From a virus (lineage: Duplodnaviria > Heunggongvirae > Uroviricota > Caudoviricetes), in IMG/VR virus record IMGVR_UViG_2861079508_000001: a stretch of DNA of 64,000 nt. One strand, 5' to 3'. Positions 6,210-57,295 of this stretch are shown piece by piece. Numbering within the stretch: position 1 is the stretch's first letter; every line of letters begins with the position of its first letter. Made by a program: the position numbers and the translations under genes. The notes beneath the pieces were generated by a model. The model saw only the letters and a list, made by a program, of their open reading frames with translations, was not told where the DNA came from and searched no databases.

Positions 6210-6225
6210 AAACAAATTGTTTTCT
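6210..6225. promoter_or_regulatory. motif 1 operator-like palindrome (AAACAAATTGTTTTCT)
   Basis: In the 43-bp gap upstream of the helicase gene start. Confidence 0.5.
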
Positions 6226-7090: not shown

Positions 7091-7145
7091 CCTGCTTCCG
7101 TATATATTTAATAAGTTACTTATTATTTATATATACAGAAGCAGG
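7091..7145. repeat. 55-bp near-perfect palindrome, copy 1
   Basis: CCTGCTTCCGTATATATTTAATAAGTTACTTATTATTTATATATACAGAAGCAGG; identical copy at 41241-41295; centre AATAAGTTACTTATT is itself palindromic and motif-2-like. Confidence 0.6.
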
Positions 7146-7256: not shown

Positions 7257-8024
7257 ATGGACGATTTATCGGTATACGCGAGATCATTGGATAAGGCTAA
7301 ATACTATGTTTACTGTCTCTATGATACAGAAGACAAGATGAAAAGACCGTTTTACATAGGAAAAGGCAAATCGACTCGTTGTCTCGATCACATCAAGTAT
7401 CCCGATGACTCTCCCAAATCCATGCGGATCAAAGAACTTTTGGCTAATAAAAAATTAGGCATAGATATACTTCGTCATGGTATGGATGAAACCACAGCCA
7501 AACTTGTTGAGGCGACATGCATCGACCTTATGGGGGTCGGAGAGCTTACGAATAAGGTACGAGGAAGTGGTTCCATGATGGGCAGAATATCACTGGACGC
7601 CTACCATCACTTAGTGCTGCAAGAGGAAACTGAAATTGCTCCTGAGCACGCCGGTCTTGCCTTCCTGCTAAACAGCACCTACAAGTCAGGAATGTCCGCT
7701 CTGGCATTATATGAGGCTACGCGTGGCGTATGGGCAAAGGTTCCAAGAGACGAGAATCTCAAATATGCCTACGCTACATATGGTGGGCTGATAATGGAAG
7801 TTTATCAGATTGAATGCTGGGTCAAAGCCGGTTCTCAGCAGTACTTTACAAGGGATATAGCTCTTGGCCCCGACACAAAACGTTATGAATTTGTTGGCAG
7901 AATAGCCGATGAGCATATTAGAAAACTGTATGTAGGCAAATTAATCAAGAAGCCACCAAGCTACGGTAGCCCTTTTGTGAAGGTTGGGGTGGTTAGGACT
8001 GAACATAGTGTTAGCGCGGCATAA
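7257..8024 (+). CDS. GIY-YIG family nuclease (possible homing endonuclease)
   Basis: N-terminal VYCLYD-x9-YIGKG-x5-R...H matches the GIY-x(9-11)-YIG motif; gene is inverted relative to all neighbours and preceded by a large non-coding region. Confidence 0.5.
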   Translation: MDDLSVYARSLDKAKYYVYCLYDTEDKMKRPFYIGKGKSTRCLDHIKYPDDSPKSMRIKELLANKKLGIDILRHGMDETTAKLVEATCIDLMGVGELTNKVRGSGSMMGRISLDAYHHLVLQEETEIAPEHAGLAFLLNSTYKSGMSALALYEATRGVWAKVPRDENLKYAYATYGGLIMEVYQIECWVKAGSQQYFTRDIALGPDTKRYEFVGRIADEHIRKLYVGKLIKKPPSYGSPFVKVGVVRTEHSVSAA

Positions 8025-8076
8025 AGCTGACACTGTAGTTATGCATTGGCGCAATGTACGCGCCAATGCATGATTT

Positions 8077-8436
8077 TTAACCTTTCTTCATCAACTCTCG
8101 TTTGATTTCATCGGTACGCATCGTGACATCGGCAGCGGTGATCGCCTCATTCAATTTCACGATGTCCTCGATTTCCTGCGGTGACTTCTCTGCCAGATGG
8201 AAAATGGCTGCTCGAATCACGTCAGAACGAGTGAACTTCTCGAAGCGAGGGATGAACTTCATCATCTCCAGCAGTTCGAAGTATTCGTCCTCCAGTGACA
8301 TTGTGCGGCTTTTAATTTTCTCTTTGCCACGAGTCGGGCGTCCCTGTGGTCTGACTGGTTGGCGCAAAGGAGTTGTGTTCTTAGCCGGTGCATCAGGCTC
8401 TTTGCGCTTTGCTAGGTCACCCATTTTCATGGACAT
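8077..8436 (-). CDS. small partition partner protein (ParG/RHH-like), putative
   Basis: 119-aa protein with basic N-terminal tail and a C-terminal segment (FTRSDVIRAAIFHL) compatible with ribbon-helix-helix; directly downstream of ParA with start/stop overlap at 8436. Confidence 0.4.
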   Translation of the reverse strand: MSMKMGDLAKRKEPDAPAKNTTPLRQPVRPQGRPTRGKEKIKSRTMSLEDEYFELLEMMKFIPRFEKFTRSDVIRAAIFHLAEKSPQEIEDIVKLNEAITAADVTMRTDEIKRELMKKG

Positions 8437-9104
8437 TATTCTTCTTCCTCCAGACTCAACAGATAATCTACAAATTCTTCAAACTCGGCTTCCGCCTTTT
8501 TGTCGCGCTCGCTACCGGTCATTTCAAAGATAGAACGACCAGACTCTTCCGCATCATCATAGACGTTGCGGTTATATAGATTGACTGGCGCAGACTCGAT
8601 GCCAAACGTCTCAACAATCTCTTTAGCCGCCAGAATGCGAGACACTTGTGATGGCAAAGCCGGGCACTGGTTCATGACCGCGCGGACCTTCACTTTATCG
8701 TTTACATTACGAACATTGTCGATAATAGGATCGATGTCACGCAGAGATTTCAAATCACGACGCTTAGGACGAAGCGGGATAATGATAACGTCGGCCATCA
8801 GCATCGCTTGTCGCTGAATTTCGGAGTCAAAGCCACCAGCATCTACCACTACATACTCAGCTCTACCCTGAAGCGATTTTAGGTGCTTAATGATGTCATC
8901 CTGAACGTATGCAAAAGGAATCAGCTCAAGGTCTTCGTTCTGTCGACGGTCTTCACACCAGCTCGTTGTCGTGCGCTGAATATCTATATCGGTGATATAA
9001 ACCTTCTTCTTCTTTTTGACTTTCAGGCAAACGGCAATTTGCTGGGCAACGGTGGATTTGCCAGGCCCGCCCTTTGTGCCGCCAACCACAAAGATCTTGG
9101 TCAT
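8436..9104 (-). CDS. ParA/MinD-family partition ATPase
   Basis: Deviant Walker A GGTKGGPGKST at N-terminus; 222 aa. Confidence 0.7.
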   Translation of the reverse strand: MTKIFVVGGTKGGPGKSTVAQQIAVCLKVKKKKKVYITDIDIQRTTTSWCEDRRQNEDLELIPFAYVQDDIIKHLKSLQGRAEYVVVDAGGFDSEIQRQAMLMADVIIIPLRPKRRDLKSLRDIDPIIDNVRNVNDKVKVRAVMNQCPALPSQVSRILAAKEIVETFGIESAPVNLYNRNVYDDAEESGRSIFEMTGSERDKKAEAEFEEFVDYLLSLEEEE

Positions 9105-9138
9105 TGGAGAGTTCCCTTTGCGTATATAATTATCGTCT

Positions 9139-9155
9139 GAAACAACTTGTTTTCT
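9139..9155. promoter_or_regulatory. motif 1 operator-like palindrome (GAAACAACTTGTTTTCT)
   Basis: Upstream of parA, next to TATATAATTATCG. Confidence 0.5.
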
Positions 9156-9243
9156 TATATGTGATATAGCCTAAATGCCTACGGCTGTGGTGTAAAGGTT
9201 AAATGGTAGGTGCTGCCTTAGAATTTTTAGGCGAGAATCAATG

Positions 9244-9276
9244 GCTGTTAACAAAAAAGGCGACCAAAGTCGCCTG
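9244..9276 (-). terminator. rho-independent terminator after gene 9281..10033
   Basis: Minus-sense AGGCGAC-TTTG-GTCGCCT followed by TTTTTTGTT. Confidence 0.55.
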
Positions 9277-24808: not shown

Positions 24809-27800
24809 TTAGTTACGTTGAGTGTTTGGGTTGAGAGATCCGCCAGGGCGTTTCTCTTGAGCGATAGTCTCAAGCGCGATTGCTTTCATCCGTTGAGCGG
24901 CATTGTTCCATATGCTTTCTGTATCGCCGGATTCAGTTGTGCTACCGTCACTATGGACGTTGATCTCAATTGATACCGGAGAAAGAACATTTCCTCCTCC
25001 ACTCATACCATCGGTACTGAGCGTTACAGGGATTGTTCGACCATCAGGCAATGGAACATACGCCTCATTCATATCGCCTTCCCCAAACAACGCCAATTGA
25101 GGTGAGTTGGCGATACCGCCTTTCTGGTATGCCCGGAGCGGGATCACGCCGTCTTTTCCGAATATGCCACCATTTGCAAACTTCGGAATTGCAGGAATAC
25201 CATTCGTGCCATCGGCAGCAGAACTGGTCAGATTGTTGAACCCGGAAGTTGAGCCAGAAGAACCGGACATCAATCCATCGAATCCACCACCAGCCCATAC
25301 TGAAACCAAACCAGATGCAACTGTCGCGCCGAAATTCAACCACTTATTACCAGAGCCGGAAGCATTAGCTCCAAGCATTGCAAACGCGGCAGACAGAGCG
25401 CCGGTAACAGAGCTGAGGTTCTGCATCGAGAAGATGGAGTCCTTCACTGCTTTTGTCTCAGCATCTTTGGCTTCGGTGCTATCAAATAGCCCCGATACCC
25501 AGCTACCAATCGCATTTGTTGCTGTGCCAATTGCGCTGGTGGTCTGCTGTGTTGTTTGCCCCAATCCAGTTACCGAACTGGACGTCTCCTTCGTGGCTTC
25601 TCCTACCGACTTGTCGCCATTAACAGTGTTGCCCATTCGTACACCTTGATTGGCAACGGCAGAAGCAACTCCAGTGAGCAAATTGCCACTCTGTGAACTA
25701 CCAGCTGCGGTGGTTCCCATCCCCAACATGTTCATTAGAGGCAGCGTGATTTGCGACTTCACGACCATATTGGTGATATCTTTCAAAATGGACTGAGATA
25801 GGCTGGAGAAGCTCATCTTCCCGTTAATAACGAAATCAGTCAGGACATCAGTTAAGCCACTAAACAAATCAGTCCAGGTGCTTTCGATCTGCTCTGCCAA
25901 GTTTTCGTATTCCAGTGCCAACTTCTGCGTCGCAGTCCCCGTCTCTTTAATAAGCGCGGTATTGCCAGCAGCAATCAGTTGATTGATTTTCTTTGTATAA
26001 AGCGCCACAACTTTAGGATCAGACGCCTTATCACGAAGTTCTATCAACGCTTTGAGATTGCGGTTGTAGGTGTCTTCGAAATCGGCAACTTTCTCTTCGC
26101 GAGACGGCGTATAGCCAGCACTAATAATGGAATCCGCCTCCGGTGCCCAAGTGGAGATCATCTGCTCAACATTGCGGCGATTAAACATCTCACGATATTC
26201 AGGTGTCGCATTTTTGAGGTCTTCAAGACGTTTTTTCGCCTTGTCGATCATCTCTTGAGTGATGAACTCGTTAGGAACCGCATTAGCCAAATCTGTCAGC
26301 GATTTCGTTGTATCGCGAAGAGACTGATCAAACGATACCGTAGCCTTAGAGCTTTCACCCATTTGCCCCATAAGCTGATCGGCTTTGTCCAGAGCCTTCT
26401 GGTATCCGGCTGCCAGTTTCTGTTGCGCTGCCTGTTCCTTCTTGGCCGCACGCTGCGAGGCGTTAGCTGATCGTTGGGCTGCTTTCTCGGCAGCTGCTGC
26501 ATCCTGTTCACGAGCTTTAGTTAGTGCAGCAATGGCTGCGGCACGCTCTTCATCGCTCATTTTCTCCAGAGAGCTGGCGCTGGATGCTTTCTGCAAATTA
26601 AGCTGCGTCTTGAGTTGTTTAGGCCCAATAATCGGCTTACCTTCGAAGTCCATCATCGGAGTGCCGTCAGGCAAAGTACGCTGATAAGTCGCAGAATTCA
26701 TCTGGTTTCGCATATATTGCGCCAACGCCTTCTGAGCAGCTTTATCAGTTGTACCTAACCCAAGAACAGTCCCCTGGTTTGACATTACGCCCTTACCAGT
26801 TTTGGCCGCGTTATCTCTCTCGAACTCTGCCTGAGTAAGTTCCTGAGCAACGGCTTCCAAATGCTCCTGATAACCACGAATACTGCCTTGCAGTTTCTGG
26901 ATTTGCTCGGTATTGCCATCCTTTTTGGCTTTTTCAAGCTGATCATTAAGAGTCGCGATTTGCTTCTCGGTCGCATTCTTACGAGAAGAAAGTGAATCAA
27001 CCAGTTTTTGCGCAGGCTCCAGATAGCTTTTGTTTACCGTTTCACGTAACGGTGCCAATAGCTTGTTCTTTTCGTCATCTGAAAGTGAACCGTCATCATT
27101 GATTTTCTGGATCTTATCCAGAGCCTCCTGCCGGGCTTTCACGAATGTTGCCGCGAAAATCTGGTTTTCCGCTCGAATTTTCTCAATCTGAGATTCGGCA
27201 GCCTCTTTAGCCAAACGCTTTGCTACAGCGCCGTCACCAAGAGCTATCGTGCCGGTTATCTTTTGATACTCTTCCTGATTTTTTTTCAGGCGTGCTTCGA
27301 TGTCAGCCTTCGACTCTTTGTGAGTAATAACACCGGCAGAGTTAGATACGTAATTAACACCCTCACCAGTTTTTAATGCTCGTTGATCAGCAAGAATCTG
27401 CTTTTCGAGCTTTTCTGCGCGGTCGGCCATTTGTGCACGTTTGGCCGCCGTCATCGCCTCTGGTATTTTCCTAATCTCGTCAACGACCTTTGAAGTTTCG
27501 CTGCGGAGCATGGTCATGTACGTGATTAGGCCAGCAACAGCTACAGTGGCAACTGTAAATGCTGCCCCTATAGGGTTTGCTGCAATGAACGCCGTTAATC
27601 CAGCAAAAGCGCCTTTAAGCCCCGTAATCGCCCCACGGATGGCGAAAATAAGAGAGGGGATCGGAGCCAGCCCCATACGTGCCGCACGATTGAATCGGGT
27701 TACTGCTGTAGCGCCGAGGTTAAATGGAGTCTGTATGGCGGTCGCCATCGTGGCAAAGGTGCTAACCATCTGGCTGCCTGCGCCAACTACCCCCATGATC

Positions 27801-28547
27801 CCTGCTCGCATCAGTTTGAACGCAACCATCGCGGCCACGACCTTACCGAGATTAATTACCAGCTCTTGGTTCTTTGCTAACCATTGAGCAAGCTGACGCA
27901 ACCCATCAATTGCCGTCGTTAACCCCGAGCCTAAAGAATTGGCAAACGAAATCCCTTCGGCGCTATTCATGATTGAAGCCAGTTCTTTCATCCCCTTCGA
28001 TAGAGAATCCAGATATCCGGCCTGACCAACCCGATCAGCAAATAACGTGAATGACGTCTGAAGTTGCGCCAGCGCACCTGTGTAGGTTTGCATCATGTCT
28101 TTCGCTGCGTTCTCATTCTCCGCACGCAGACCAACAAACATCAGAGACAACGCCTGTTTTGCCTCAACCGTACCGCTGGCAACGGCTTTAGTCAGTTCCC
28201 CCATAGTGATGCCTGCGGCGTCTGCCATTGCCTGCATCGCGTTAGGAACGGCTTCACCTAATTGCTGACGTAGCTCTTCCATTGACACAACGCCCTTACC
28301 GGACATCTGCTGAACGGCCACAGCCGCACGTTTCAACAGCTCACTATCACCACCAAAACGAGCAACGGAGTCCACCAGCGCCTTCAGAGAACCATCGGTT
28401 GGATCTAAGCCAGCAGAACGAAACTTCACGAAGGAATCTGTTAACGCCTGCATCGCGAACGGCGCATTTTGCGCCATGTCTACGATGTACTTCATATCAT
28501 CAGCGGCAGCCTGGCCAGGGTTGGACTTCTCCTTATTCAACCCTCGA
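24809..28547 (-). pseudogene. tape measure protein, 3' portion (gene interrupted by IS insertion)
   Basis: Long mostly helical ORF (1243 aa from an internal TTG) downstream of chaperone genes; reading frame is continuous with the 29858..30714 fragment once the IS and one TSD copy are removed. Confidence 0.7.
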
Positions 28548-28601
28548 TGAACCGCCCCGGGAATCCTGGAGACTAAACTCCCTGAGAAAGAGGTAAACAG
28601 G

Positions 28602-28928
28602 ATGACTAAAAATACTCGTTTTTCCCCCGAAGTCCGTCAGAGGGCGATTCGTATGGTTCTGGAAAGTCAGGGCGAATATGACTCACAGTGGGCGGCAATT
28701 TGTTCCATTGCCCCAAAGATTGGCTGTACACCGGAGACTCTGCGTGTCTGGGTACGCCAGCATGAGCGGGATACCGGAGGCGGTGATGGCGGGCTCACCA
28801 CCGCTGAACGTCAGCGTCTGAAAGAGCTGGAACGTGAAAATCGTGAACTGCGCCGCAGTAACGATATCCTTCGCCAGGCTTCCGCTTATTTTGCGAAGGC
28901 GGAGTTCGACCGCCTCTGGAAAAAATGA
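28602..28928 (+). CDS. IS3-family transposase OrfA (HTH/leucine-zipper part)
   Basis: 108 aa [23 protein letters not shown]...; I recognise this as the IS629/IS3-group OrfA; ends at an A-run slippery site. Confidence 0.8.
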
Positions 28929-29815
28929 TGCCACTGCTGGATAAGCTGCGTGAGCAGTACGGGGTCGGACCGCTATGCAGCGAACTGCATATTGCCCCGT
29001 CAACGTATTACCACTGTCAGCAACAGCGACATCATCCGGATAAACGCAGTGCCCGTGCGCAGCGCGATGACTGGCTGAAGAAAGAGATACAGCGCGTATA
29101 CGATGAAAATCATCAGGTGTACGGTGTGCGTAAAGTCTGGCGTCAGTTGTTACGGGAAGGTATCAGAGTGGCCAGATGCACTGTGGCACGTCTCATGGCG
29201 GTTATGGGACTTGCCGGTGTTCTCCGGGGTAAAAAGGTCCGTACGACCATCAGCCGGAAAGCCGTTGCCGCAGGCGACCGCGTAAACCGTCAGTTCGTGG
29301 CAGAACGACCTGACCAGCTGTGGGTGGCTGATTTTACTTACGTCAGCACATGGCGGGGCTTCGTCTATGTGGCGTTCATCATTGATGTGTTTGCCGGATA
29401 CATCGTGGGGTGGCGGGTCTCATCGTCTATGGAAACGACATTCGTGCTGGATGCTCTGGAGCAGGCGTTATGGGCCCGTCAACCGTCCGGCACAGTCCAT
29501 CACAGTGATAAAGGTTCTCAGTATGTATCGCTGGCCTACACACAGCGGCTTAAGGAAGCCGGATTACTGGCATCAACAGGAAGTACTGGTGACTCGTATG
29601 ACAACGCGATGGCGGAGAGCATCAATGGCCTTTACAAAGCGGAGGTAATACACCGTAAGAGCTGGAAAAACCGGACAGAAGTGGAGCTGGCCACACTCAC
29701 GTGGGTGGACTGGTATAACAATCGACGATTGCTGGAAAGGCTGGGCCATATCCCACCGGCAGAAGCAGAAAAAGCTTATTATGCTTCCATCGGAAACGAT
29801 GATCTGGCAGCCTGA
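28925..29815 (+). CDS. IS3-family transposase OrfB (DDE catalytic part)
   Basis: 296 aa overlapping orfA in the -1 frame at AAAAAATGA; integrase-type DDE core (e.g. [16 protein letters not shown]). Confidence 0.8.
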
Positions 29816-29857
29816 GTTCACAGATAAAACACTCTCCAGGAAACCCGGGGCGGTTCA

Positions 29858-30714
29858 CGAAGCATCACCCGCATACGTTCCATTTCGGCCGCAGCTTCAA
29901 CAATAGGCTTCTGCCACCCAAACATGATGTCAGTAACCGTTCTGGCTGCATCTCCGATCTCGCCAAGCAGGAAAATGTTGCCACGAAGGCCAGAGAACAT
30001 ACCTCCTTCGTTACTTTTACCGCTATGGCCAGAAGCGCCGCTACGCCGCCCGCTACCACCATCGCCACTTCCAGATGTACGAACGCGTACCGGCTTGCTA
30101 ATCAGTTGCTGACGTCCGATAACTTCGTCCATCTGCTCACGAACCTTTTTCAGTCCCTCGGCAGCCTGACTCGTTGTGACACCCCAATTACTGAGTCGCT
30201 TCGTCGTGGTATTAAGGCGCGTATTCATGCCACTCACGGACGCAGAGGCTTCTTTGACCTCCGTACCAAAGCGGCTTGCGCTTTTGCTTGCATAGGTCGC
30301 CCAATCAGAGAAATCATTTAGCTCTGATTGCACTTTACGTAATGACGCGGTGAGTTTATCTACTGAAGAAGTTGTCGTATCGACGCGCTCAATCAGGGCT
30401 TTAAGACCAGAATTGAGGCTGGTGATGTTGCCACGCATTTTACGCGTAGCATCTGAAGCAAGCTCAAAACCGGCAGCTACATCCTGTAGTTTATCTGCTG
30501 TAGAATCGAGCTTGCTTTCCAGAACGCCAATGATACGGGCGACCGAACCCAAAGAGCGTTCAAAGGTTTGGATTTTTTGAGCAGGCTTTGTTACCTGCTC
30601 ACCAAATCGAGTAAGCAGTTTCCCCGCACGATCGATTGACGCTGTAAACTGTTTGTCTTCCAGCGACAGGATAAACTCTACGTTTTGTGACATTCCCTTG
30701 TCATCCTCTGCCAA
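29858..30714 (-). pseudogene. tape measure protein, 5' portion (truncated by IS; last 13 codons of ORF are IS-derived)
   Basis: ORF 29818..30714 reads from TMP start into the IS right end; codon 285 ends in the CGA target duplication. Confidence 0.7.
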
Positions 30715-36724: not shown

Positions 36725-37612
36725 TTACTTAAGTCCAATTTTCCCCAGACCGGAGGCCAACTTATCCATAGTCGACTTGTTCTTCGGTTGGGATATTGTG
36801 TAGGTCGATTTGGAATGTGAGCCTACACCCTGCTTGGCTTCGCTACGCATCAATGCGTCAGCTTCCGGATCTGCCCGCACAATGCGTTCAATCGCGGATT
36901 CAAACGGCAACGGCTTACCTTCACCGTCAACCAGAACAGCTCGTTCTTTATGACCTGCCGGTTTGTCATAACCCACTACGCTACCGTCTTCACCCACTTC
37001 AAAATGAGAACCGTAGATCACGCGGGCTTTTGCCGGAGTCATCAGAACTTTGTCACGTAGGAAGAGAGAGTTACTGAAGGAAGCGCCCACGGTCATCTCG
37101 ACTAATTGAGATTTCAGTGATGCGTTTTCACTTTCCAGTGCTGCATAACGTTCGTCACGCTGTGCCAGCTCTGCCTGGTGTGCTTCGATCATCTGTTTTT
37201 TAACAGCATCGAACTCACCACGACGCTCCAGTTCAGCTTGCTCCGCCTCACGACGTGCGTTTTCTGCGGCCTGTTCAGCTTCTAAAAGCTGGCGAGCACG
37301 CGCCGGGTCGATTTCACCGTACTGAGCAAGCTGATCGGCCAATGTGCGCTCTTTCTCTTTGCGCTTCATGTTCTCTTTCAGCAGTTCAGCACCAGCTTTC
37401 TTGGTTTTGCGAAGTTCGGCCAGTAACTCTTCATGAGTCATGCCAGCGTATTCGTCATCACCCTTCGGCTGCTCTTTTTGTTCACCCTGCTTGTCAGGAT
37501 CTTGTGTACTCTGCTCATTATCAGCAGCTACACCGCCAGCGCCCCCACGCTCATGCGCTTCAGCAACATCCATCAGACCACGACGGGCCAAAAGCATTTG
37601 CCACAGTTTCAT
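36725..37612 (-). CDS. scaffolding protein (putative)
   Basis: 295 aa, highly charged Glu/Ala/Arg-rich helical sequence between portal and capsid genes. Confidence 0.45.
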   Translation of the reverse strand: MKLWQMLLARRGLMDVAEAHERGGAGGVAADNEQSTQDPDKQGEQKEQPKGDDEYAGMTHEELLAELRKTKKAGAELLKENMKRKEKERTLADQLAQYGEIDPARARQLLEAEQAAENARREAEQAELERRGEFDAVKKQMIEAHQAELAQRDERYAALESENASLKSQLVEMTVGASFSNSLFLRDKVLMTPAKARVIYGSHFEVGEDGSVVGYDKPAGHKERAVLVDGEGKPLPFESAIERIVRADPEADALMRSEAKQGVGSHSKSTYTISQPKNKSTMDKLASGLGKIGLK

Positions 37613-41163: not shown

Positions 41164-41204
41164 AAACAACTTGTTTACTGCATTTTCTAACCAACTTGTT
41201 TTCT
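41164..41204. promoter_or_regulatory. two motif 1 copies (AAACAACTTGTTTA; CCAACTTGTTTTCT)
   Basis: In the intergenic region upstream of the small terminase gene and downstream of the wHTH gene. Confidence 0.45.
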
Positions 41205-41240: not shown

Positions 41241-41295
41241 CCTGCTTCCGTATATATTTAATAAGTTACTTATTATTTATATATACAGAAGCAGG
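41241..41295. repeat. 55-bp near-perfect palindrome, copy 2
   Basis: Identical to 7091-7145; lies in the non-coding region just upstream of the small terminase gene. Confidence 0.6.
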
Positions 41296-41595: not shown

Positions 41596-42486
41596 TTATG
41601 CCGGTAAAGCAATTTCTAACGGTTTATCCAAAGGTTGTTTGTCGAATGCCAGCAGTGGCAGCGTGTCAGGCAGTCGACGACCAAAGTCAGGGTTTCGATA
41701 CACCCCATACAACGGAGACGTAAAGCTCAGGTTGTGAATGTCCTTGAGCAACTTCACAATGCAGGCCTCGTCCACCAGACTGTCGGCAATGTCCTGAATC
41801 GTCGTGCCACGATTCCGCCCAGCTTTTGCCAGGGAACTGTTCTTGTGGTAGTCCGCCACCAGATCACGCAGTGCACGGCGACGACGAGACTCGCTCATTG
41901 CGAACAACTCTTTGACGATCGCCTCGTTATCACCCGGGTCGGAACGGAAATGGCGCTGGAATACACGCAGTGCACTTTCATAGCTCTTCGGTCGCTCAGG
42001 GCGGATGAACTTAAACCCTGCTTTCATGGCGAAGGGATTGTATTTGCTCATCGAGGACTGGATCTCAATGATTGGCCGGTCATGCATCCTGCTAACCAGG
42101 TTAATCATTCGATAAGAGACGCCTACGCCACGATACTGAGTATCCACAACTGAGCGACTGATCACCGCAAAGTTGTTATTCACGTACCGACCCCAGTACT
42201 GGTTAGCCACGGTGGTATTAGTGGTTGGTTTCAACTTAGGAAACATGCGGTGGCGAGGTGCCAACAGTAGTTTCGGGTAAGCCATAACCACGACGCCCAC
42301 CAGACGGTCATCAAGTTCGCAGCGATAGTAAGTTGGCGCGAAAGGTTTGCCGTCTGTTTTGTAGTGAAGCGACTTAAGAGCGTGCCAGTCCTCTACAGTT
42401 CCCTTTGTAACAGTCATTCGCTCCAGAAAGTCCAGATGACGCGGAAACTCTTCAGGGCGGTAGCGTTTAATGATGATGTCCGTCAT
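41596..42486 (-). CDS. GNAT-like acyltransferase-fold protein (function unknown)
   Basis: Segment VVDTQYRGVGVSYRMINLV...NPFAMKAGFKF resembles GNAT acetyl-CoA binding motifs A/B; 296 aa with long extensions; 4-bp overlap with upstream gene. Confidence 0.4.
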   Translation of the reverse strand: MTDIIIKRYRPEEFPRHLDFLERMTVTKGTVEDWHALKSLHYKTDGKPFAPTYYRCELDDRLVGVVVMAYPKLLLAPRHRMFPKLKPTTNTTVANQYWGRYVNNNFAVISRSVVDTQYRGVGVSYRMINLVSRMHDRPIIEIQSSMSKYNPFAMKAGFKFIRPERPKSYESALRVFQRHFRSDPGDNEAIVKELFAMSESRRRRALRDLVADYHKNSSLAKAGRNRGTTIQDIADSLVDEACIVKLLKDIHNLSFTSPLYGVYRNPDFGRRLPDTLPLLAFDKQPLDKPLEIALPA

Positions 42487-43148
42487 GAATGGACCTCATC
42501 GTGACTACCATTGTGATATTCCACCTTCACGCGTTCTTTGTAGTGCTTGGTGATCTGCATATCCGGGCGCAGCGCGTTCTTCAGGTCTTCGTGAGTCGTC
42601 GCCACCATTACCGTCGCACCAACCTTTCGAGCGGCACGCTGGAGGTTAGACGCCACAACCTGAGCGGTTACACGGTCGAGAACAGCGCCGAACTCGTCAG
42701 CAGCCCACACTTTAGCGCCTGACTCAATCAGTTTGGCAATCTTGAGACGATATTTCTGGCCGTCTGACATTTCAGAAGGCTTGCGAACAAACAGATATGC
42801 ATCGTTCAGACCAGCCATAGATAACAACCCAAGCGCATCACTGGTCGTTTTGCCCAACTGATCGATGACGTTAACCTCATTATCGAAGGTAAAATCATCG
42901 ATGGAGGCTACAGACAGCCCTTCATCCTTCATCTGTCGTTGCAACTCGCGCAGCACAACGGATTTGCCGGAACCGGATTGGCCGGTGATGTACACCACAT
43001 CGCCCTGCTTCACTTCCAGCTCCAGATTGTCGTAAAGCGTCCACTCTTTTTCGTCCAGGCCAAGCCCGAACGACTCAGCGATTTCCAACGTGCGCGTGGT
43101 TTTATTTACGCGTGTCTGAAACGATACGTTGATGATGTATTTGCTCAT
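42483..43148 (-). CDS. soluble ABC-type ATPase
   Basis: Walker A GQSGSGKS, ABC signature MSDGQKYRL, Walker B VWAADEF, H-loop TTHED; no transmembrane domain. Confidence 0.6.
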   Translation of the reverse strand: MSKYIINVSFQTRVNKTTRTLEIAESFGLGLDEKEWTLYDNLELEVKQGDVVYITGQSGSGKSVVLRELQRQMKDEGLSVASIDDFTFDNEVNVIDQLGKTTSDALGLLSMAGLNDAYLFVRKPSEMSDGQKYRLKIAKLIESGAKVWAADEFGAVLDRVTAQVVASNLQRAARKVGATVMVATTHEDLKNALRPDMQITKHYKERVKVEYHNGSHDEVHS

Positions 43149-43813
43149 GCAGCCATCTCCCCGGAAGAGATCTTCTCCGCATATGCCACAAATGCGTCTA
43201 CCCCGCTTTCTCCCGTCATTTCTTCCATGTGGGCAAGCAAATCACCAACAACAATGGCAGAGCCAGCAGGGAGCGTTTTAAAGCCCAATACGTCGACAAC
43301 ACGTACTTCTTCCGCTGCAACTTCACGACTGATCTCGGTGTGTTCATCCTTCTGTCGTTTAGTTTCTTCGCCAAGATCGATAACTAGCGAGTCGGTGTCC
43401 ATTTCTTCTGTCATACTGCCAACGAGAACATTCAACTCACGCTCTTCAAAGCCGAAAACCTCGATATCGTCCAGAACAAGCGACTCAAGCTCTTTCTGTA
43501 GCTTAATTGCATCGTAATCAATGCTGGCAAGTCGGTTATCTTCAAGGCGCTTCGCACGAACCTCGTCATCACTGAGATCATCGCGAACAATAACCGGTAC
43601 GCGCTCAAGTCCAGCAAAAATTGCAGCCTCACGGCGGCCGTGGCCAGTAATAATTACGTCGTTCTTATCGACCGTAATTGGCTGGTCAAATCCGCGCTTT
43701 TTAATGGCTGCGGCTAGATCTCGGATCTGCTGTTCATCATGCTTTTTGGCATTCATCTCATAGGGAATAAGATCTGCCGGGTCGCGATATACGATTTCAA
43801 ACTTTTTGGTCAT
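43145..43813 (-). CDS. ParB-like nuclease-domain protein
   Basis: ITGHGRREAA motif (ParB/Srx box); start set at ATG overlapping upstream stop (TAATG). Confidence 0.55.
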   Translation of the reverse strand: MTKKFEIVYRDPADLIPYEMNAKKHDEQQIRDLAAAIKKRGFDQPITVDKNDVIITGHGRREAAIFAGLERVPVIVRDDLSDDEVRAKRLEDNRLASIDYDAIKLQKELESLVLDDIEVFGFEERELNVLVGSMTEEMDTDSLVIDLGEETKRQKDEHTEISREVAAEEVRVVDVLGFKTLPAGSAIVVGDLLAHMEEMTGESGVDAFVAYAEKISSGEMAA

Positions 43814-44493
43814 TACATACGCTCCTTGTAGTAGTCGACCAGCCACACCAGAGCCTCACCAGCGTTCTCCATTTCATTACCGGTGTTAATAGCCTGCTCT
43901 TTGATGATGTTTTTTATGGTTTCTGCAACACGATCTGACGCATCGAAAGTTACTTTGAAGCGCATGGTCTGATGTTCCGCACCCACACGTTCGGTTTTCT
44001 CTCGTTTGTCGGTATCGACAGGCTCATCACTACCACGAGACAACGCCTCCAGTGCTTCAAGGTCGATTGCCGCCTCTTTTGCTAAAACCATCGAGATTTC
44101 GTCGTCATACGGGGCGATTTCAGACAGTTGATAGTCAAGTTCTGACTGAATTTCTTCAATGAAGCGTTGCAATGCGATTTGGTCGTCTTCACCGTATCGC
44201 TCGTTGTCCACCAGTGACATCTGTTTAGCTACGACATCGCTAATTTTGCCCACAGAAAGCACCGGAACCGTTGAAATTCCTTGCTCAATAGCAGCACGCC
44301 AGCGATGTTCGCCGCCGAGGATTTCAAAAAATCCATCTTCAAGTTCACGAGCCAAAATTGGCTTAAAAAAGCCCAATTTTTCGATAGAACCTTTCAGTTT
44401 TTCAAAATTCTGCGCACCAACCGAATTGGTGTTCCAGGTATTCGGGCGAAGGTTGGCAACATCAACCTGCAAAATCGTGATTTTTACATCCAT
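43813..44493 (-). CDS. ParB-like nuclease-domain protein
   Basis: LRPNTWNTN and ILGGEHRWRAA motifs (ParB N-terminal domain boxes); start set at first ATG. Confidence 0.6.
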   Translation of the reverse strand: MDVKITILQVDVANLRPNTWNTNSVGAQNFEKLKGSIEKLGFFKPILARELEDGFFEILGGEHRWRAAIEQGISTVPVLSVGKISDVVAKQMSLVDNERYGEDDQIALQRFIEEIQSELDYQLSEIAPYDDEISMVLAKEAAIDLEALEALSRGSDEPVDTDKREKTERVGAEHQTMRFKVTFDASDRVAETIKNIIKEQAINTGNEMENAGEALVWLVDYYKERM

Positions 44494-50322: not shown

Positions 50323-50636
50323 TGTTGGTGTTAATTATCGTTGTACGAATAAGGCGTCAAAGTGGAAAGTTGCGGTAGCCGGACGGGAACAGGTGGGTTT
50401 GTCGGTTGCCTGGAGGTAAGAGGTTGGTGTTATTAGCCTGAGGGAAACAGGATGGTCATTTAAGACCACCAATGCTGGTGGCCTTAATAATTATCGCCCG
50501 ATTACGCTAAGGATCTTTTCCTCAACTGATTTGTTGTTGCGACTAAACTGCCTTGCGTATCTGATGACAGAAGAGGCGTTTTGCTTTCTGACCATCTCGG
50601 CTCTTTCCTTCAGGCGTTTCTTGAAATCGCCCATAT

Positions 50637-52115: not shown

Positions 52116-52445
52116 TTACGCGAATACCTCAAGAAACTCCTGAACGTCCCAATGCTGGACGAGGTGAAGATAGACCTTAGAAATCACGTCATTTTCGCTA
52201 TCGCATGTGAAGTAGTACTTCTGGCTGCGGTTGTATGTGTCCACACAAAATTCGCTCATATCCATAAAGTCAGCATCATCACCCAGGTCGCTAATCATCA
52301 AAGCAGGTGCATCATCACGAGTCATCAGCTCCAGCACCCATCTTGAATTAATCAGAGTGGAAGACCAACCTTCCAGCTCATAAAACTGGTCAAACTCTTT
52401 TTGAGTCAATTTCTTAATTTGGTTGATGTCGATATTTGCAAACAT
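52116..52445 (-). CDS. hypothetical small acidic protein (candidate DNA-mimic/anti-restriction-like)
   Basis: Start at ATG preceded by AAGGA; ~110 aa with many Asp/Glu; GATAAT + motif-1 operator upstream. Confidence 0.45.
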   Translation of the reverse strand: MFANIDINQIKKLTQKEFDQFYELEGWSSTLINSRWVLELMTRDDAPALMISDLGDDADFMDMSEFCVDTYNRSQKYYFTCDSENDVISKVYLHLVQHWDVQEFLEVFA

Positions 52446-52458
52446 AAAGCAATCCTTA

Positions 52459-52474
52459 AACAAGATGTTTTCTT
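52459..52474. promoter_or_regulatory. motif 1 variant (AGAAAACATCTTGTTT)
   Basis: Between GATAAT and RBS AAGGA of gene 52116..52445. Confidence 0.5.
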
Positions 52475-52789
52475 AATGGTGTTATTATCGCAATAACGCA
52501 CAGGCGAAAAAGGATTTTATTCCGGTGAATGTGGTTTTGGCAGTGAGTTTTCAGGTTCAGTACAGAGTACACTTTTTACATTATTCTGATTTAGTGGCCG
52601 AAGATGGCTGGTGGGCAGAATAATCATCTCCCCGAAAACCTACTGAAATCGATTGTGACCCGTTGGCTGTCTGGCACAATTACGCTGTAACTGGGCATTC
52701 AGAGGGAATCCAGCGGTAAGTAGGTTCGCCTTCACGTGAGCGCCTCTCTTCTTCCCGCACATTACAGGTGGGTAGCCGCAACTCTCCCT

Positions 52790-52950
52790 CTCGCTATGCC
52801 GGTACGCCGCCGTTCCTGAACCGGCATCGAGCCTTTTCCCGAAATCCACACAGGCAACTCGACCGTTTCCCTGAAAACCTCCAGCCGTTCCCCGAAGGCA
52901 ACCCAGCCGTTTCTGTAGCGGGATGCAACCTTTTCCCTGTATGGACCGAA
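52790..52950 (+). repeat. iteron-like direct repeat array B (same unit family)
   Basis: ~6 tandem ~22-bp units (CCGTTCCTGAACC, CCTTTTCCCGAAATCC, CCGTTTCCCTGAAAACC, CCGTTCCCCGAAGGC, CCGTTTCTGTAGC, CCTTTTCCCTGTATGG). Confidence 0.5.
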
Positions 52951-53049
52951 GGCTGACCGTAGGGGTGTTACGGGGGATAAAATCAGGAGTTGAATAAATA
53001 CGAAAAAGGAGGCGACACCCCTCCTTCCCTCCCCACTTATACATACCTG

Positions 53050-53900
53050 GCTTCTTCGCTATACATGTTGTGTTTTATCTGTCTCAACCTCTCTATAGGC
53101 GTTAATGCTCACTCCTTCCAGAATGTTCTATACGGCAACTATTTCTGTTGGTGAATTGGGTGTGTTGTTCTCTCTGTCGGTGTATGTGGTTTCGTTCGTT
53201 TTGCGGTGGTTCTTCTATGGGGTGTTCTCGTCGTTTTGGTGATTGTTCTTCTCCGTGTATGGAGTAATGGCAGGTGGGCGATTCCTTTCGTTGTTGTGTT
53301 TGAGTTGTTTGTCTGGAGTGTGTGAAAGGCTTTTGCAGTTATTCGTGTATTGGGTAATGGCATTTCCCGTGATTGTTGTGTTTCGTGTCTTTTGGGATTG
53401 AGAGAAACCTTGCGGTTACAGGCTTCGTTGGGGTTTCAGTGATTCTGGTGTTCTTCGCTGTTTGGGGAATGGCGTGTCGTGGGTATCGCGCGTATGAATG
53501 TTTTCGGATTGCCTGTGAAAGTTAGGTTGGTTGTCCGGTAGCCTGGGGAGAAGAGGTGGGTCTTTTCGGTAGCCTGCCATAAAGAGGTTGGTTGTTTTTG
53601 GAAATGGCATTTGTGTTATTTAGTTGTTTTGTTATGCCTGAAAATAAGTTGTTTATATGGTTGTGTAACGCAACGGGAGCGATTTTGAGCGTGTGTTTTT
53701 GTTGGTAGTGTGTTGGGTCGTCTGTGGTGAAAATTGGACGCTGTGGCGCTGTCTGCTGCGTAGAGTTACGGGTATAAGCAGTGATGTGTGAAAACGTCAA
53801 TTTTTTAGACCAAATCGGGTGAAAGCGTTGATGTTTCGTTGATCTGTTATTCAGTTGTTTTCTTGATTGTATAAACAACTATAACTTATTGATATTTAAG
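53050..53900 (+). repeat. GT-skewed non-coding region with periodic GGnTAATGGCA-type repeats
   Basis: Plus strand almost exclusively G/T-rich; recurring TGGAGTAATGGCAGG, TTGGGTAATGGCATTT, GGGGAATGGCGTG, TGGAAATGGCATTTG at ~85-130-bp spacing; also CGGTAGCCTGGGGAGAAGAGGTGGGT duplicated and related to 50400-50430. Confidence 0.5.
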
Positions 53901-54009
53901 GATGTGATTGCGGGTATGGAAGAAGAGTAGTGGCGATCAACGGATTCTTATAGAAAAGAATCAAATTGTGACCGCCATTATCAACTGATTGATTTGTTTA
54001 CTTGTGTAG

Positions 54010-54408
54010 TCAGTTCTCGAAATGAATAGGGTCAACGTAATGCCGCTCACCGCTTTTACCATTACACAGCACTGTAACTTTCGCCTTTTCACTCCAGGCT
54101 GAGTATAGAAAGTTCCCATCAGGTTGAACATGGTAACGAGAGAAGTAAACATCGCCGACTGAGGCGTCGAACATGTTCCTATCTTTTTCACTTTGGGCAA
54201 GCGAGATGGATATCACCGAATTCCCATTTGGGGAAACGATTTTAAATTTATTCCCTATATCCATAACAATATTGTAACCAGGTAATTGCTTGTGTGTTTC
54301 CGGATCTATTTTCATGCATCGTGGGTACACGATAGTGTTAGGCTCTTCAACTGGCGTGGCATTAGCAGAAAGCACAAAAAATATTAGTGCCAATGGTGCA
54401 TATTTCAT
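54010..54408 (-). CDS. secreted protein of unknown function
   Basis: Signal peptide MKYAPLALIFFVLSANA; 132 aa. Confidence 0.5.
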   Translation of the reverse strand: MKYAPLALIFFVLSANATPVEEPNTIVYPRCMKIDPETHKQLPGYNIVMDIGNKFKIVSPNGNSVISISLAQSEKDRNMFDASVGDVYFSRYHVQPDGNFLYSAWSEKAKVTVLCNGKSGERHYVDPIHFEN

Positions 54409-54702
54409 TTATCCCTCACAATTTCCAATTTTCCAGACCATCGTCTATTTCAGCGTCAGGGTGGAATTGTACCGCATCAAATCCTACATCGAGCACCTTT
54501 CGAATGTTCTTGATGGTTTGCTATGTGACACCGTAATCACGCAGCTTTTCTTCCCTCCCCTGACTCCCCCATACTCCGTTTCTGTACCCAATTGAGTCCG
54601 AGATTGTATGGTGCTCGAAACAGATATTTGGTAGACACTCAGAGTCATGCTGTGTAACGAGGGTAGGGCTACTAACTGTCGTCTTATACAATTTGGTGAG
54701 TT

Positions 54703-55104: not shown

Positions 55105-57138
55105 TTACTTAACCTGGTGGCCAGGTTTAGCACCAGCATCCGGGCTTAACAGGAAGATATCTTTCCCGCCGGGGCCAGCAGCCATCACCATGCCTTCAGA
55201 GATACCGAAGCGCATTTTACGTGGTGCCAGGTTAGCCACCATAATGGTGTGACGACCAATCAGTGCCTGTGGATCTGGATAAGCGGAACGGATGCCTGAG
55301 AAGACATTACGCTTTTCACCACCGAGATCCAGCGTCAGGCGAAGCAGTTTGTCAGAACCTTCTACAAACTCTGCGTTTTCAATCAGCGCCACGCGCAGGT
55401 CAACTTTGGCGAAGTCGTCAAAGGTGATAGTTTCCTGAATCGGGTCGTCAGCCAGTGGGCCAGTTACCGGTGCGGCTGTGGCTTTCACTTCTTCTTTGGA
55501 TGCTTCCACCAGTGCTTCAACCTGCTTCATATCGATGCGGTTATACAGTGCCTTGAACGGATTCACTTTATGGCCCAGCAGCGGTTGCTGGATACCATCC
55601 CAGGTCAGTTCTGTATTCAGGAATGCTTCTGCACGTTCAGTCAGTTTCGGCAGTACCGGTTTCAGGTACGTCATCAGCACGCGGAACAGGTTAATGCCCA
55701 TAGAGCAAATCGCCTGCAGATCGGCATCGCGTCCTTCCTGCTTTGCCACCACCCACGGAGCCTGTTCATCAACATAGCGGTTAGCCAGGTCAGCCAGTGC
55801 CATGATTTCACGGATAGCTTTGCCAAATTCGCGGCTTTCCCATGCTTCGCCAATCACTTCAGCGGCATCAGTAAAGGTTTTGTACAGTTGCGGGTCAGCC
55901 AGTTCGCTTGCCAGCACGCCGTCAAAACGCTTGTTGATAAAGCCTGCATTACGGGAGGCCAGGTTAACCACTTTGTTAACGATATCGGCATTCACACGCT
56001 GAACGAAATCTTCCAGGTTGAGATCGATATCATCAATGCGCGAAGAGAGTTTCGCAGTGTAGTAGTAACGCAGGCTGTCGGCGTCAAAATGATTCAGCCA
56101 GGTGCTGGCTTTAATAAAGGTGCCGCGAGACTTGGACATCTTCGCGCCGTTCACCGTCACATAGCCGTGAACAAACAGGTTGGTCGGCTTGCGGAAGTTG
56201 CTGCCTTCCAGCATGGCAGGCCAGAACAGGCTGTGGAAGTAAACGATATCTTTGCCGATGAAGTGGTACAGCTCGGCGGTGGAGTCTTTCTTCCAGTATT
56301 CGTCGAAGCTGGTAGTGTCGCCGCGTTTGTCGCACAGATTCTTGAAGGAACCCATGTAGCCAATCGGCGCGTCCAGCCAGACGTAGAAGTATTTGCCCGG
56401 TGCGTTCGGAATTTCAAAACCGAAGTAAGGTGCGTCACGGGAGATATCCCACTGTTGCAGGCCAGATTCAAACCACTCCTGCATTTTGTTTGCCACCTGC
56501 TCCTGCAACGCACCGCTGCGGGTCCATGCCTGCAACATTTCGCTGAAAGAAGGCAGATCAAAGAAGAAGTGTTCGGAATCACGCATTACCGGTGTAGCGC
56601 CAGAAACCACTGATTTCGGCTCGATCAGTTCCGTCGGGCTGTATGTCGCGCCGCAGACTTCACAGTTATCGCCGTATTGATCCGGCGCTTTACATTTCGG
56701 GCATGTGCCTTTTACAAAACGGTCCGGCAGGAACATGCCTTTTTCCGGGTCGTACAGCTGAGAGATGGTGCGGTTTTTAATAAAACCGTTCTCTTTCAGG
56801 CGAGTATAGATAAGCTCGGACAACTGACGGTTCTCTTCGCTGTGCGTCGAGTGATAGTTGTCATAGCTGATGTTAAAGCCTGCGAAATCAGTCTGATGTT
56901 CCTGACTCATTTCGCCAATCATCTGTTCCGGTGTGATACCAAGCTGCTGTGCTTTCAGCATGATTGGCGTACCGTGGGCATCGTCGGCACAGATGAAATT
57001 AACCTCGTGGCCGCGCATTCGCTGGTAACGAACCCAGACATCAGCCTGGATGTGCTCCAGCATATGGCCGAGGTGGATTGAGCCGTTAGCGTACGGCAGC
57101 GCGCACGTCACCAGAATTTTCTTCGCGACTTGGGTCAT
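55105..57138 (-). CDS. metG: methionine--tRNA ligase
   Basis: 677-aa product from the ATG at 57136-57138 (track ORF is 43 codons longer from an upstream alternative start); HLGH and KMSKS class-I motifs; sequence I recognise as Escherichia-type MetG. Confidence 0.95.
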
Positions 57139-57295
57139 AGTAGGCATTACTTCTTTGTAGTGAAAAGGGGCTTGATAGTAACAAAATGGCCTTATGTCTG
57201 CCATGTGATAACAGCATTTCTCATAAATGATTAAATGTCGTAGCTGGAGTACACTACAAGGCGACAATTGCGCAAATTAAAATAAAGGAGACGGG

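What the first reader, a model, noticed from the sequence alone, without database searches (positions are those of the whole stretch)
8077..9276. Plasmid-type partition cassette (ParA + small partner) inside the phage replication block, with no integrase anywhere in 64 kb
A deviant-Walker-A ParA ATPase and an overlapping small RHH-like partner sit downstream of a motif-1-controlled promoter. Together with the iteron arrays and absence of a recombinase, this suggests the element can persist as an extrachromosomal prophage (phage-plasmid) rather than by integration.
Basis: partly seen in the sequence, partly recalled or inferred. Interest (0 to 1): 0.5.

Follow-up and report, generated by a model that had tools for sequence, protein, structure and literature searches.

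The report
Partition cassette of SSU5-type phage-plasmid

Summary
Observation confirmed. An intact 222-aa ParA with a deviant Walker A box (8436..9104, minus strand) overlaps by 1 nt (TAATG) a 119-aa ORF (8077..8436). A conserved leader carrying the recurrent palindrome AGAAAACAAGTTGTTT lies upstream.

The window is 99.9% identical to the circular 113-kb E. coli plasmid pSJC33-2, an SSU5-supergroup phage-plasmid. The cassette occurs in 263 of 5,426 complete E. coli genomes, at 264 places, all on plasmids. The phage-plasmid interpretation is therefore correct, and already published.

- The full element carries a tyrosine recombinase 5.7 kb outside the window.
- The window itself holds an IS3-family transposase, inserted in the tape-measure gene.
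- The window's repeat arrays are not replication iterons. The RepB gene and its iterons lie outside the window.

The partner's RHH fold could not be shown; Pfam, PDB, hhalign and AlphaFold-based fold searches were uninformative. Its role as ParA's partner is supported: all four distant homologues examined sit directly downstream of a ParA gene, and the N-terminal MGDLAK motif is invariant in close relatives. The centromere is unidentified. The best candidate is the unique, strongly conserved stretch upstream of parA.

Low interest; already known.

The parts
8436..9104 (-). parA: 222-aa type Ib (ParF-like) partition ATPase with deviant Walker A KGGPGKST and no N-terminal HTH extension
   Evidence: aligns with ParF residues 8-189, including the Walker A, A' and B regions; NCBIfam ParA_partition 115.5 bits, covering the full profile but below the 180-bit cutoff.
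8077..8436 (-). Partner gene, 119 aa. Predicted disordered N-terminal tail with invariant MGDLAK, a length-variable linker, a basic RPQGRPTRGK arm, SRTMSxEDE followed by two helices (putative RHH), and two further C-terminal helices. Likely the centromere-binding and ParA-activating protein.
   Evidence: conservation pattern; PHROG 5111, unknown function; AF2: residues 1-25 pLDDT <50; helices 48-59, 70-82, 86-97, 101-118; always directly downstream of a ParA gene; only 18 cluster representatives among 1.84 billion proteins.
9105..9212 (-). Conserved 108-nt leader/promoter region of the par operon. The unique part (about 9160-9212, CCTACCATTTAACCTTTACACCACAGCCGTAGGCATTTAGGC) is the best candidate for the partner's operator/centromere.
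   Evidence: 83-92% identity in 7 relatives, versus 51-64% at parA third codon positions and 40-58% further upstream; the unique part occurs once in the plasmid and is absent from pMT1.
9140..9155 (-). Motif 1 palindrome AGAAAACAAGTTGTTT, preceded by TATAAG. This operator-like site is shared with about 15 other promoter-proximal sites in the window, including the helicase gene (6210-6225).
   Evidence: Conserved at the same positions in a distant element and retained in pMT1, which lacks the cassette.
9258..9275 (-). Intrinsic terminator of the upstream gene (AGGCGACTTTGGTCGCC followed by a T-run). It marks the 5' boundary of the par transcription unit.
8041..8071 (.). Perfect 12-bp-stem hairpin (ATGCATTGGCGC/GCGCCAATGCAT) between the convergent partner gene and the GIY-YIG-like gene. 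Probable terminator and 3' boundary of the cassette.
   Evidence: I5.

Best explanation
This is the type Ib (ParF/ParG-like) active partition system of an SSU5-supergroup phage-plasmid.

The prophage replicates as a low-copy circular plasmid from an iteron-controlled Rep3/RepB replicon that lies outside the window. ParA-ATP dimers coat the nucleoid. Dimers of the small partner bind a cis site, most likely the unique conserved sequence just upstream of parA, where they would also autoregulate. The partner's flexible N-terminal peptide (MGDLAKRK) stimulates ParA ATP hydrolysis, so sister plasmids are moved apart by a diffusion-ratchet mechanism.

The operon also carries the element-wide 'motif 1' operator, so its expression is tied to the phage backbone regulon.

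Shown: intact ParA with all ATPase motifs; a conserved, translationally coupled partner; a selected upstream cis region; exclusively plasmid location.

Inferred: DNA binding and RHH fold of the partner, the position of the centromere, ATPase stimulation, and regulation through motif 1.
For: ParA identity.

Gene pairing: 1-nt stop/start overlap. The pair plus about 110 nt upstream is the conserved block in SSU5 and Klebsiella elements whose flanking genes differ. All four distant partner homologues examined (26-41% identity) lie directly downstream of a 221-229-aa ParA/MipZ-like gene in SSU5-like synteny.

Partner features: the N-terminal MGDLAK is invariant among 12 close relatives, and L8 with K10 persist in the distant ones. 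SRTMSxEDE and FTRSDVIRAA are conserved.

Cis region under selection.

Plasmid state: (264 of 264 places on plasmids). Replicon outside the window.

Family already described as phage-plasmids: PMC7969092, PMC11652158, bioRxiv 10.1101/2025.09.12.675607.
Against: No experiment on this cassette was found in the searchable literature.

The partner has no Pfam, PDB or HHalign link to any known centromere-binding protein, and its models give no fold match.

No clear array of repeats typical of a type Ib centromere is visible upstream of parA. There are only short boxes: TAGGC twice at 8-bp spacing, and three xACC boxes at 8-bp spacing.

ParA scores below NCBIfam's equivalog cutoff (115 against 180 bits).
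Confidence: 0.85

Rival explanations
1. The small protein is ParA's centromere-binding partner, but it is not an RHH protein. It would be a new fold or family of type Ib adaptor, for example a helical dimer with a basic arm.
For: No RHH family is detected by Pfam, PDB sequence search or hhalign against ParG or a hand-made RHH profile. The AF2 monomer models show four helices and no strand. The family is tiny and isolated.
Against: The pattern SRTMSLEDE-helix-loop-(F)TRSD-helix matches the RHH layout, with an alternating strand and an S/T N-cap on helix B. The two weak hits, NCBIfam aCcr1 (which I recall to be an RHH family) at E 2e-4 and hhalign at P 0.05, both place helices A and B in the RHH register. 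An RHH strand forms only in the dimer, so a monomer model cannot show it. ParA's closest solved relative, ParF, works with an RHH partner.
Confidence: 0.3
2. ParA's real partner is one of the two ParB N-terminal-domain proteins encoded 35 kb away (43148..44493, minus strand). The small ORF would then be only a local transcriptional regulator.
For: RefSeq names one of them 'ParB/RepB/Spo0J family partition protein'. Both match Pfam ParB_N and PHROGs labelled 'ParB-like partition protein'. Surveillance work uses an SSU5 'parB' as a marker gene (bioRxiv 10.1101/2025.09.12.675607).
Against: They match only the ParB_N domain; no HTH or dimerisation domain is detected. They sit in an operon with an ABC-like ATPase next to the terminase genes. 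pMT1 keeps this block although it has no homologue of this ParA and uses a P1-type parAB. ParF-type ATPases pair with small adjacent partners (established knowledge of type Ib systems). The small ORF is adjacent to ParA in every lineage examined.
Confidence: 0.07
3. The element is an integrative prophage that uses the tyrosine recombinase encoded just outside the window, and the par cassette is vestigial.
For: A Phage_integrase-family gene exists at record 110909..112012, 5.7 kb from the window start on the circle.
Against: None of 264 copies in complete E. coli genomes is chromosomal. The matching records are circular plasmids of about 100-115 kb. The recombinase is 86% identical to that of the plasmid pMT1, which fits a backbone function such as multimer resolution. 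ParA and its partner are intact and conserved.
Confidence: 0.02

Closest known systems
Salmonella phage SSU5 genes SSU5_033 (ParA-like partition protein) and SSU5_034 (hypothetical), and the SSU5 / pHCM2 / pSLy3 phage-plasmid supergroup
   Same: Same two-gene module (86.6% nucleotide identity over the module), the same synteny between the lysis genes and the helicase-primase genes, and the same conserved leader. The family is documented as plasmid prophages (PMC7969092).
   Different: The genes flanking the cassette differ. Here a GIY-YIG-like gene lies downstream, where SSU5 has three other genes. This copy also has an IS in its tape-measure gene.
ParF-ParG-parH of Salmonella plasmid TP228 (type Ib partition)
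   Same: Small ParA without an N-terminal DNA-binding domain; ParF is the best solved relative (E 3e-10). The partner is a small protein encoded immediately downstream, with a disordered N-terminal tail followed by a compact C-terminal domain. The cis site is expected upstream of the operon.
   Different: The partner is longer (119 against 76 aa), has two extra C-terminal helices, and shows no detectable sequence similarity to ParG. No array of tetramer boxes like parH is evident. The promoter also carries an element-wide operator (motif 1).
delta-omega system of pSM19035 and other RHH-type type Ib partition systems
   Same: A ParA-type ATPase plus a small protein expected to act both as repressor and as centromere binder.
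   Different: Omega binds heptad repeats at several promoters. Here the dispersed motif is not tied to the partner, because pMT1 keeps the motif without the partner.
P1 parABS, the pMT1 parAB and N15 sopAB (type Ia systems of other phage-plasmids)
   Same: The same biological role: segregation of a plasmid prophage.
   Different: Those use large ParA proteins (about 400 aa) with an HTH, together with ParB/SopB proteins. pMT1, a backbone relative of this element, uses that type in place of this cassette.

Membership tests
Type Ib (ParF-like) ParA partition ATPase | Deviant Walker A motif KGGxxK[ST] with the signature lysine | tested here: met
   GGTKGGPGKST at residues 8-18, aligned to NPKGGSGKTT of ParF.
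Type Ib (ParF-like) ParA partition ATPase | Small size (about 200-230 aa) with no N-terminal HTH or regulatory domain | tested here: met
   222 aa. Residues 9-199 align with ParF 8-189. NCBIfam ParA_partition profile positions 6-202 of 203 are covered.
Type Ib (ParF-like) ParA partition ATPase | Score above a curated family threshold | tested here: inconclusive
   Pfam AAA_31, MipZ, CbiA and ParA are above their gathering scores. NCBIfam equivalog NF041546 scores 115.5 bits, below its 180-bit cutoff.
Type Ib (ParF-like) ParA partition ATPase | Small partner gene immediately downstream in the same operon | tested here: met
   1-nt overlap. Adjacency holds in SSU5, pJN2-26 and four distant lineages.
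Type Ib (ParF-like) ParA partition ATPase | Cis-acting centromere made of repeats bound by the partner | tested here: inconclusive
   A unique 108-nt upstream region is under selection, but no clear repeat array was found.
Type Ib (ParF-like) ParA partition ATPase | Stabilises a low-copy replicon; ATP-dependent nucleoid binding | not testable with these tools
   Needs a plasmid stability assay and biochemistry.
RHH centromere-binding proteins (ParG / omega type) | Ribbon-helix-helix fold in the DNA-binding domain | tested here: inconclusive
   No Pfam or PDB hit. hhalign against ParG gives probability 0.1% and against a hand-made RHH profile P 0.05, in the correct register. NCBIfam aCcr1 gives E 2e-4, below its cutoff. 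AF2 monomer models place helices where expected but show no strand. Fold searches were uninformative.
RHH centromere-binding proteins (ParG / omega type) | Flexible N-terminal tail with conserved basic residue(s) that activates the ParA ATPase | tested here: inconclusive
   Residues 1-25 have pLDDT <50. MGDLAK is invariant in 12 relatives, and L8 and K10 are kept in the distant ones. Activation itself was not tested.
SSU5-supergroup phage-plasmid | Siphovirus structural, lysis and replication genes syntenic with SSU5 | tested here: met
   80.7% identity over 51% of the first 25 kb to SSU5, and 95-96% to E. coli phages CMS-2020a, Cyrano and PhiR41_1. Annotation.
SSU5-supergroup phage-plasmid | Maintained as a circular plasmid with its own replication initiator | tested here: met
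   99.9% identical to the circular plasmid pSJC33-2. 264 of 264 places are on plasmids. A Rep3/RepB gene with at least 13 iterons lies outside the window.
Integrative temperate prophage | Integrase plus chromosomal attachment junctions | tested here: not met
   An integrase-family gene exists outside the window, but no chromosomal copy was found in 5,426 complete E. coli genomes.

The most novel reading that the evidence does not exclude
The 119-aa partner founds a previously unrecognised, narrowly distributed family of type Ib centromere-binding adaptors. It has no Pfam family, sits in PHROG 5111 'unknown function', and has only 18 cluster representatives among 1.84 billion proteins. Its operon would be wired into the phage's global motif-1 regulon, so that partition-gene expression is coupled to the lysogeny/lytic state of a phage-plasmid. 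The centromere would be an atypical single conserved site rather than a repeat array.
Probability: 0.3. Interest if true: 0.35.

Novelty: already known. Interest (0 to 1): 0.15.

Why it matters
SSU5-like phage-plasmids are common: about 5% of complete E. coli genomes carry this cassette. They are also known carriers of resistance and accessory genes. Naming the partition module and its likely partner protein is useful for annotation and for incompatibility or curing studies. It adds no new biology, because the plasmid lifestyle and the ParA gene of this family are already in the literature. The only open points are the partner's fold and the position of the centromere.

Tried and rejected
1. 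RHH assignment by sequence.

3. Deeper homologues of the partner. The exhaustive HMMER search found only 18 representatives, all the same family.

4. Motif 1 as the partner's dispersed centromere (a KorB or N15-SopB style reading). Rejected: pMT1 lacks the partner and this ParA but keeps motif 1 at homologous sites.

5. The 30-nt arrays (50370-50456, 53501-53592) as centromere or iterons. Rejected as the centromere of this system because pMT1 has the array too. They are not RepB iterons, which have a different sequence and lie elsewhere.

6. The 55-nt palindromes (7091-7145, 41241-41295) as centromeres. They are more simply read as bidirectional terminators: a GC-clamped stem with a T-run on both strands, lying between transcription units. 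Not tested further.

7. ParB_N proteins as the partner. Disfavoured.

8. A sigma-70 promoter call. The consensus scan found only a weak site at 9251-9223, in the non-conserved part of the region. My candidate promoters in the conserved part (TAGGCA-N16-TATAAG or TTTACA-N17-TAGGCT) are by eye only.

9. The genome-contig scan with ParA gave four close loci plus about 40%-identical chromosomal ParA-like genes in Colwelliaceae/Alteromonadaceae. These were not pursued.

Full report
**What is at 8077-9276**

The minus strand carries two ORFs. The first, 8436..9104, encodes a 222-aa protein beginning MTKIFVVGGTKGGPGKST, which contains the deviant Walker A box KGGxxK[ST] of the ParA/MinD family. The second, 8077..8436, encodes 119 aa. 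Its ATG shares one base with the ParA stop codon (TAATG), and GGAGG lies 10 nt upstream, an arrangement typical of translational coupling. RefSeq uses an in-frame ATG two codons later, giving 117 aa.

Upstream, an intrinsic terminator of the preceding gene (9258-9275) is followed by a 150-nt non-coding stretch. Downstream, a perfect 12-bp-stem hairpin (8041-8071) separates the cassette from a convergent GIY-YIG-like gene (7257..8024).

**ParA**

- It passes the Pfam gathering scores for AAA_31, MipZ, CbiA and ParA.
- It matches PHROG 164 'ParA-like partition protein' at 2e-51.
- It covers the whole NCBIfam ParA_partition profile, but at 115.5 bits, below the 180-bit equivalog cutoff.
- Its closest solved relative is ParF of plasmid TP228 (E 3e-10). 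The alignment runs from the Walker A box through the A' and B regions to residue 199.

By size, and by the absence of an N-terminal DNA-binding domain, it is a type Ib ParA.

**What the element is**

The window is 99.9% identical over its whole length to E. coli plasmid pSJC33-2 (NZ_CP080257.1), a circular replicon of 113,446 bp. The one exception is a 1,310-bp insertion in the window.

Phage records give 95-96% identity to Escherichia phages CMS-2020a, Cyrano and PhiR41_1, and about 81% to Salmonella phage SSU5. SSU5 annotates the homologous gene as 'ParA-like partition protein'. The cassette region matches 736 PLSDB plasmids from Klebsiella, Escherichia, Enterobacter, Salmonella and other genera, 702 of them typed non-mobilizable.

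In 5,426 complete E. coli genomes the cassette is present in 263 genomes, at 264 places. All 264 are on plasmids and none on a chromosome.

The SSU5 supergroup is an established phage-plasmid family (PMC7969092; PMC11652158). repB, parA and parB of SSU5 are already used as screening markers (bioRxiv 10.1101/2025.09.12.675607).

- The full replicon encodes a Phage_integrase-family protein at record 110909..112012, 5.7 kb before the window start on the circle. Its absence from the window is a boundary effect. The protein is 86% identical to the one in Yersinia pestis pMT1, a backbone relative that is also held as a circular plasmid record. A backbone role such as multimer resolution is therefore the likelier function; this is inference.
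- The window does hold a recombinase of another kind. An IS3-family element occupies 28548..29857, with 25-bp inverted repeats, a CGA target duplication, two ORFs and an ALIL frameshift pseudoknot.
- The plasmid replicon is outside the window. A Rep3/RepB initiator gene is flanked by at least 13 copies of the iteron GTATGCTGTCAGCGGT at record 84.3-86.1 kb. The 30-nt arrays inside the window (50370-50456 and 53501-53592) are unrelated to these iterons and also occur in pMT1.

**The small partner**

It has no Pfam family, belongs to PHROG 5111 'unknown function', and is called 'hypothetical' in every record seen. The family is very small: 25 clusters at 90% identity, and 18 representatives among 1.84 billion proteins in an exhaustive profile search.

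The alignments show five segments:
- an N-terminal MGDLAK(R/K), invariant in close relatives, with L8 and K10 retained in distant ones;
- a linker that varies in length and composition;
- a basic RPQGRPTRGK stretch;
- a conserved (K/R)SRTxSxE(D/E)E block followed by a helix;
- a conserved (F/L)(T/S)R(S/T)DV.RAA block that begins a second helix.

AlphaFold places residues 1-25 in disorder and predicts helices at 48-59, 70-82, 86-97 and 101-118.

The strongest evidence that it works with ParA is gene context. All four distant homologues examined (26-41% identity) lie immediately downstream of a 221-229-aa ParA/MipZ-like gene in SSU5-like neighbourhoods. In SSU5 and Klebsiella pJN2-26 the two genes plus about 110 nt of leader form the conserved block while the flanking genes change.

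From established knowledge of ParA partners, a short conserved N-terminal peptide with a basic residue on a flexible tail is what stimulates the ATPase. Examples are the ParG tail and the Spo0J/ParB N-terminal peptides. The MGDLAK motif fits that role; this is inference.

**Is the partner RHH?**

The layout is RHH-like: a short alternating strand (S-R-T-M-S-L), helix A, a loop, and an S/T-capped helix B. It lines up by eye with CopG and ParG. Every formal test was negative or weak.
- PDB sequence searches found nothing relevant.
- hhalign against ParG gave probability 0.1%. The ParG sequence was confirmed as 1P94.
- hhalign against a hand-made profile of ten RHH domains gave P 0.05, although in the correct helix A/B register.
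- NCBIfam aCcr1, an RHH family to my knowledge, gave E 2e-4, below its cutoff, in the same register.
- Fold searches with the monomer models returned noise. That is expected, because the RHH ribbon exists only in the dimer.

I rate RHH as plausible (about 0.5-0.6) but not shown.

**Cis elements**

The 108 nt upstream of parA are 83-92% identical in seven relatives from Salmonella, Klebsiella, Kluyvera, Buttiauxella and a metagenomic bin. In the same pairs, parA third codon positions are 51-64% identical, and sequence further upstream is unrelated at 40-58%. The region has two parts.

1. Motif 1. AGAAAACAAGTTGTTT lies at 9140-9155, directly after TATAAG. The pattern has 24 matches in the window against 0.39 expected, corresponding to about 15-18 distinct sites. 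Most sites lie 12-36 nt upstream of start codons. Several are preceded, about 10 nt upstream, by an extended -10-like TGnGATAAT. One of the sites is upstream of the DnaB-like helicase gene (6210-6225). The motif is kept upstream of parA and of the helicase gene in a distant element. pMT1, which has neither this ParA nor the partner (tblastn E>0.7), still has six copies. Motif 1 is therefore the operator of a backbone regulator, not the partner's site. 'Motif-1-controlled promoter' is reasonable but remains inferred.

2. A unique segment at about 9160-9212, CCTACCATTTAACCTTTACACCACAGCCGTAGGCATTTAGGC. It occurs once in the plasmid and is absent from pMT1. It contains TAGGC twice at 8-bp spacing and three xACC boxes at 8-bp spacing. 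It is the best candidate for the partner's operator/centromere, with low confidence (about 0.4).

**The ParB-like genes**

Two ParB_N-only proteins (43148..43813 and 43816..44493, minus strand) precede an ABC-like ATPase gene next to the terminase genes. pMT1 keeps this block while using a P1-type parAB for partition. They are therefore a phage-backbone feature and unlikely to be the partners of this ParA.

**Mechanism proposed**

This is a type Ib diffusion-ratchet partition system for a low-copy plasmid prophage. ParA-ATP binds the nucleoid. Partner dimers bind the site upstream of parA. The partner's N-terminal peptide triggers ATP hydrolysis. Expression is additionally gated by the backbone regulator through motif 1.

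In this particular copy the tape-measure gene is split by the IS (fragments 24809..28540 and 29818..30714). The element is therefore probably unable to make tails and depends on vertical, plasmid-type inheritance; this is inference.

**Verdict**

However, the finding re-discovers a known property of a known family. The remaining open items, the partner's fold and the location of the centromere, are of modest specialist interest.

Noticed in passing
window 28548-29857: A 1,310-bp IS3-family insertion sequence is inserted in the tape-measure gene (fragments 24809..28540 and 29818..30714). It has orfA 28602..28928, orfB 28925..29815, an ALIL frameshift pseudoknot, 25-bp inverted repeats TGAACCGCCCCGGG..TCCTGGAGA and a CGA target duplication. 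It is absent from the otherwise 99.9% identical pSJC33-2, so this copy is probably defective as a phage.
   Followed up: yes
window 6210-6225, 9140-9155, 41164-41204, 50307, 51068, 51973, 52458, 53639, 54957, 55005, 58628, 61539, 62253, 62982: The palindrome AGAAAACAAnTTGTTT ('motif 1') recurs 12-36 nt upstream of start codons (24 matches against 0.39 expected). Several copies are preceded by a TGnGATAAT extended -10-like element. It is conserved in a distant relative (L011) and in pMT1. It looks like the operator of an unidentified backbone regulator.
   Followed up: partly
window 7091-7145 and 41241-41295; related copy at pSJC33-2 68411-68468; SSU5 locus L005 1001-1063: A 55-nt AT-rich palindrome with GC-clamped ends (CCTGCTTCCGTATATATTTAATAAGTTACTTATTATTTATATATACAGAAGCAGG) is 100% identical at two sites 34 kb apart and is also present in SSU5. 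It lies between transcription units. It is probably a bidirectional terminator, but a protein-binding role is not excluded.
   Followed up: partly
window 50370-50456 and 53501-53592: Two arrays of three copies each of a repeat of about 30 nt (consensus TCGGTAGCCTG..G.AA.AGGT.GGT) occur only at these two loci. The second array has one more copy in pSJC33-2. A related array is in pMT1 (37513-37567). They are not RepB iterons and not tied to the par cassette. Function unknown.
   Followed up: partly
window ~52440-54700: A stretch of about 2.3 kb has no annotated gene in the RefSeq record of the near-identical plasmid. GC skew is strongly positive (+0.13 at 52-54 kb). It contains the second 30-nt array and motif-1 copies. 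No Rfam family or tRNA was found there.
   Followed up: no
window 55105-58396 (metG minus strand, apbC plus strand); IS1 remnant just downstream: A divergent metG-apbC pair, arranged as on the enterobacterial chromosome, is carried by the phage-plasmid. It is about 90% identical to the E. coli chromosomal locus, so it was probably captured from another species. It is present at 222 plasmid places in complete E. coli genomes. This gives the host a second copy of an essential tRNA synthetase gene on a mobile element.
   Followed up: partly
window 42486-44493 (minus strand): Two tandem ParB_N-only proteins are followed by an ABC-like ATPase and PHROG 886/900 genes, upstream of the terminase genes. 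The block is conserved in pMT1, independently of the type of partition system. Function unknown; it is often mis-read as the partition ParB.
   Followed up: partly
window 7257-8024 (plus strand): A LEM-3-like GIY-YIG domain protein (PHROG 5356) lies between the par cassette and the replication genes. SSU5 and pJN2-26 carry three different genes at this position (one of them annotated DUF2971 in SSU5), so this is a variable cargo slot.
   Followed up: no
pSJC33-2 record 84313-86065 (outside the window; locus L002 34313-36065): This is the plasmid replicon: a Rep3/RepB initiator gene with three or four iterons GTATGCTGTCAGCGGT at its 5' end and about ten more downstream.
   Followed up: yes
loci L018-L048: ParA-like genes about 40% identical to this ParA sit on large chromosomal contigs of Colwellia, Thalassotalea and other Alteromonadales. 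Their context was not examined.
   Followed up: no
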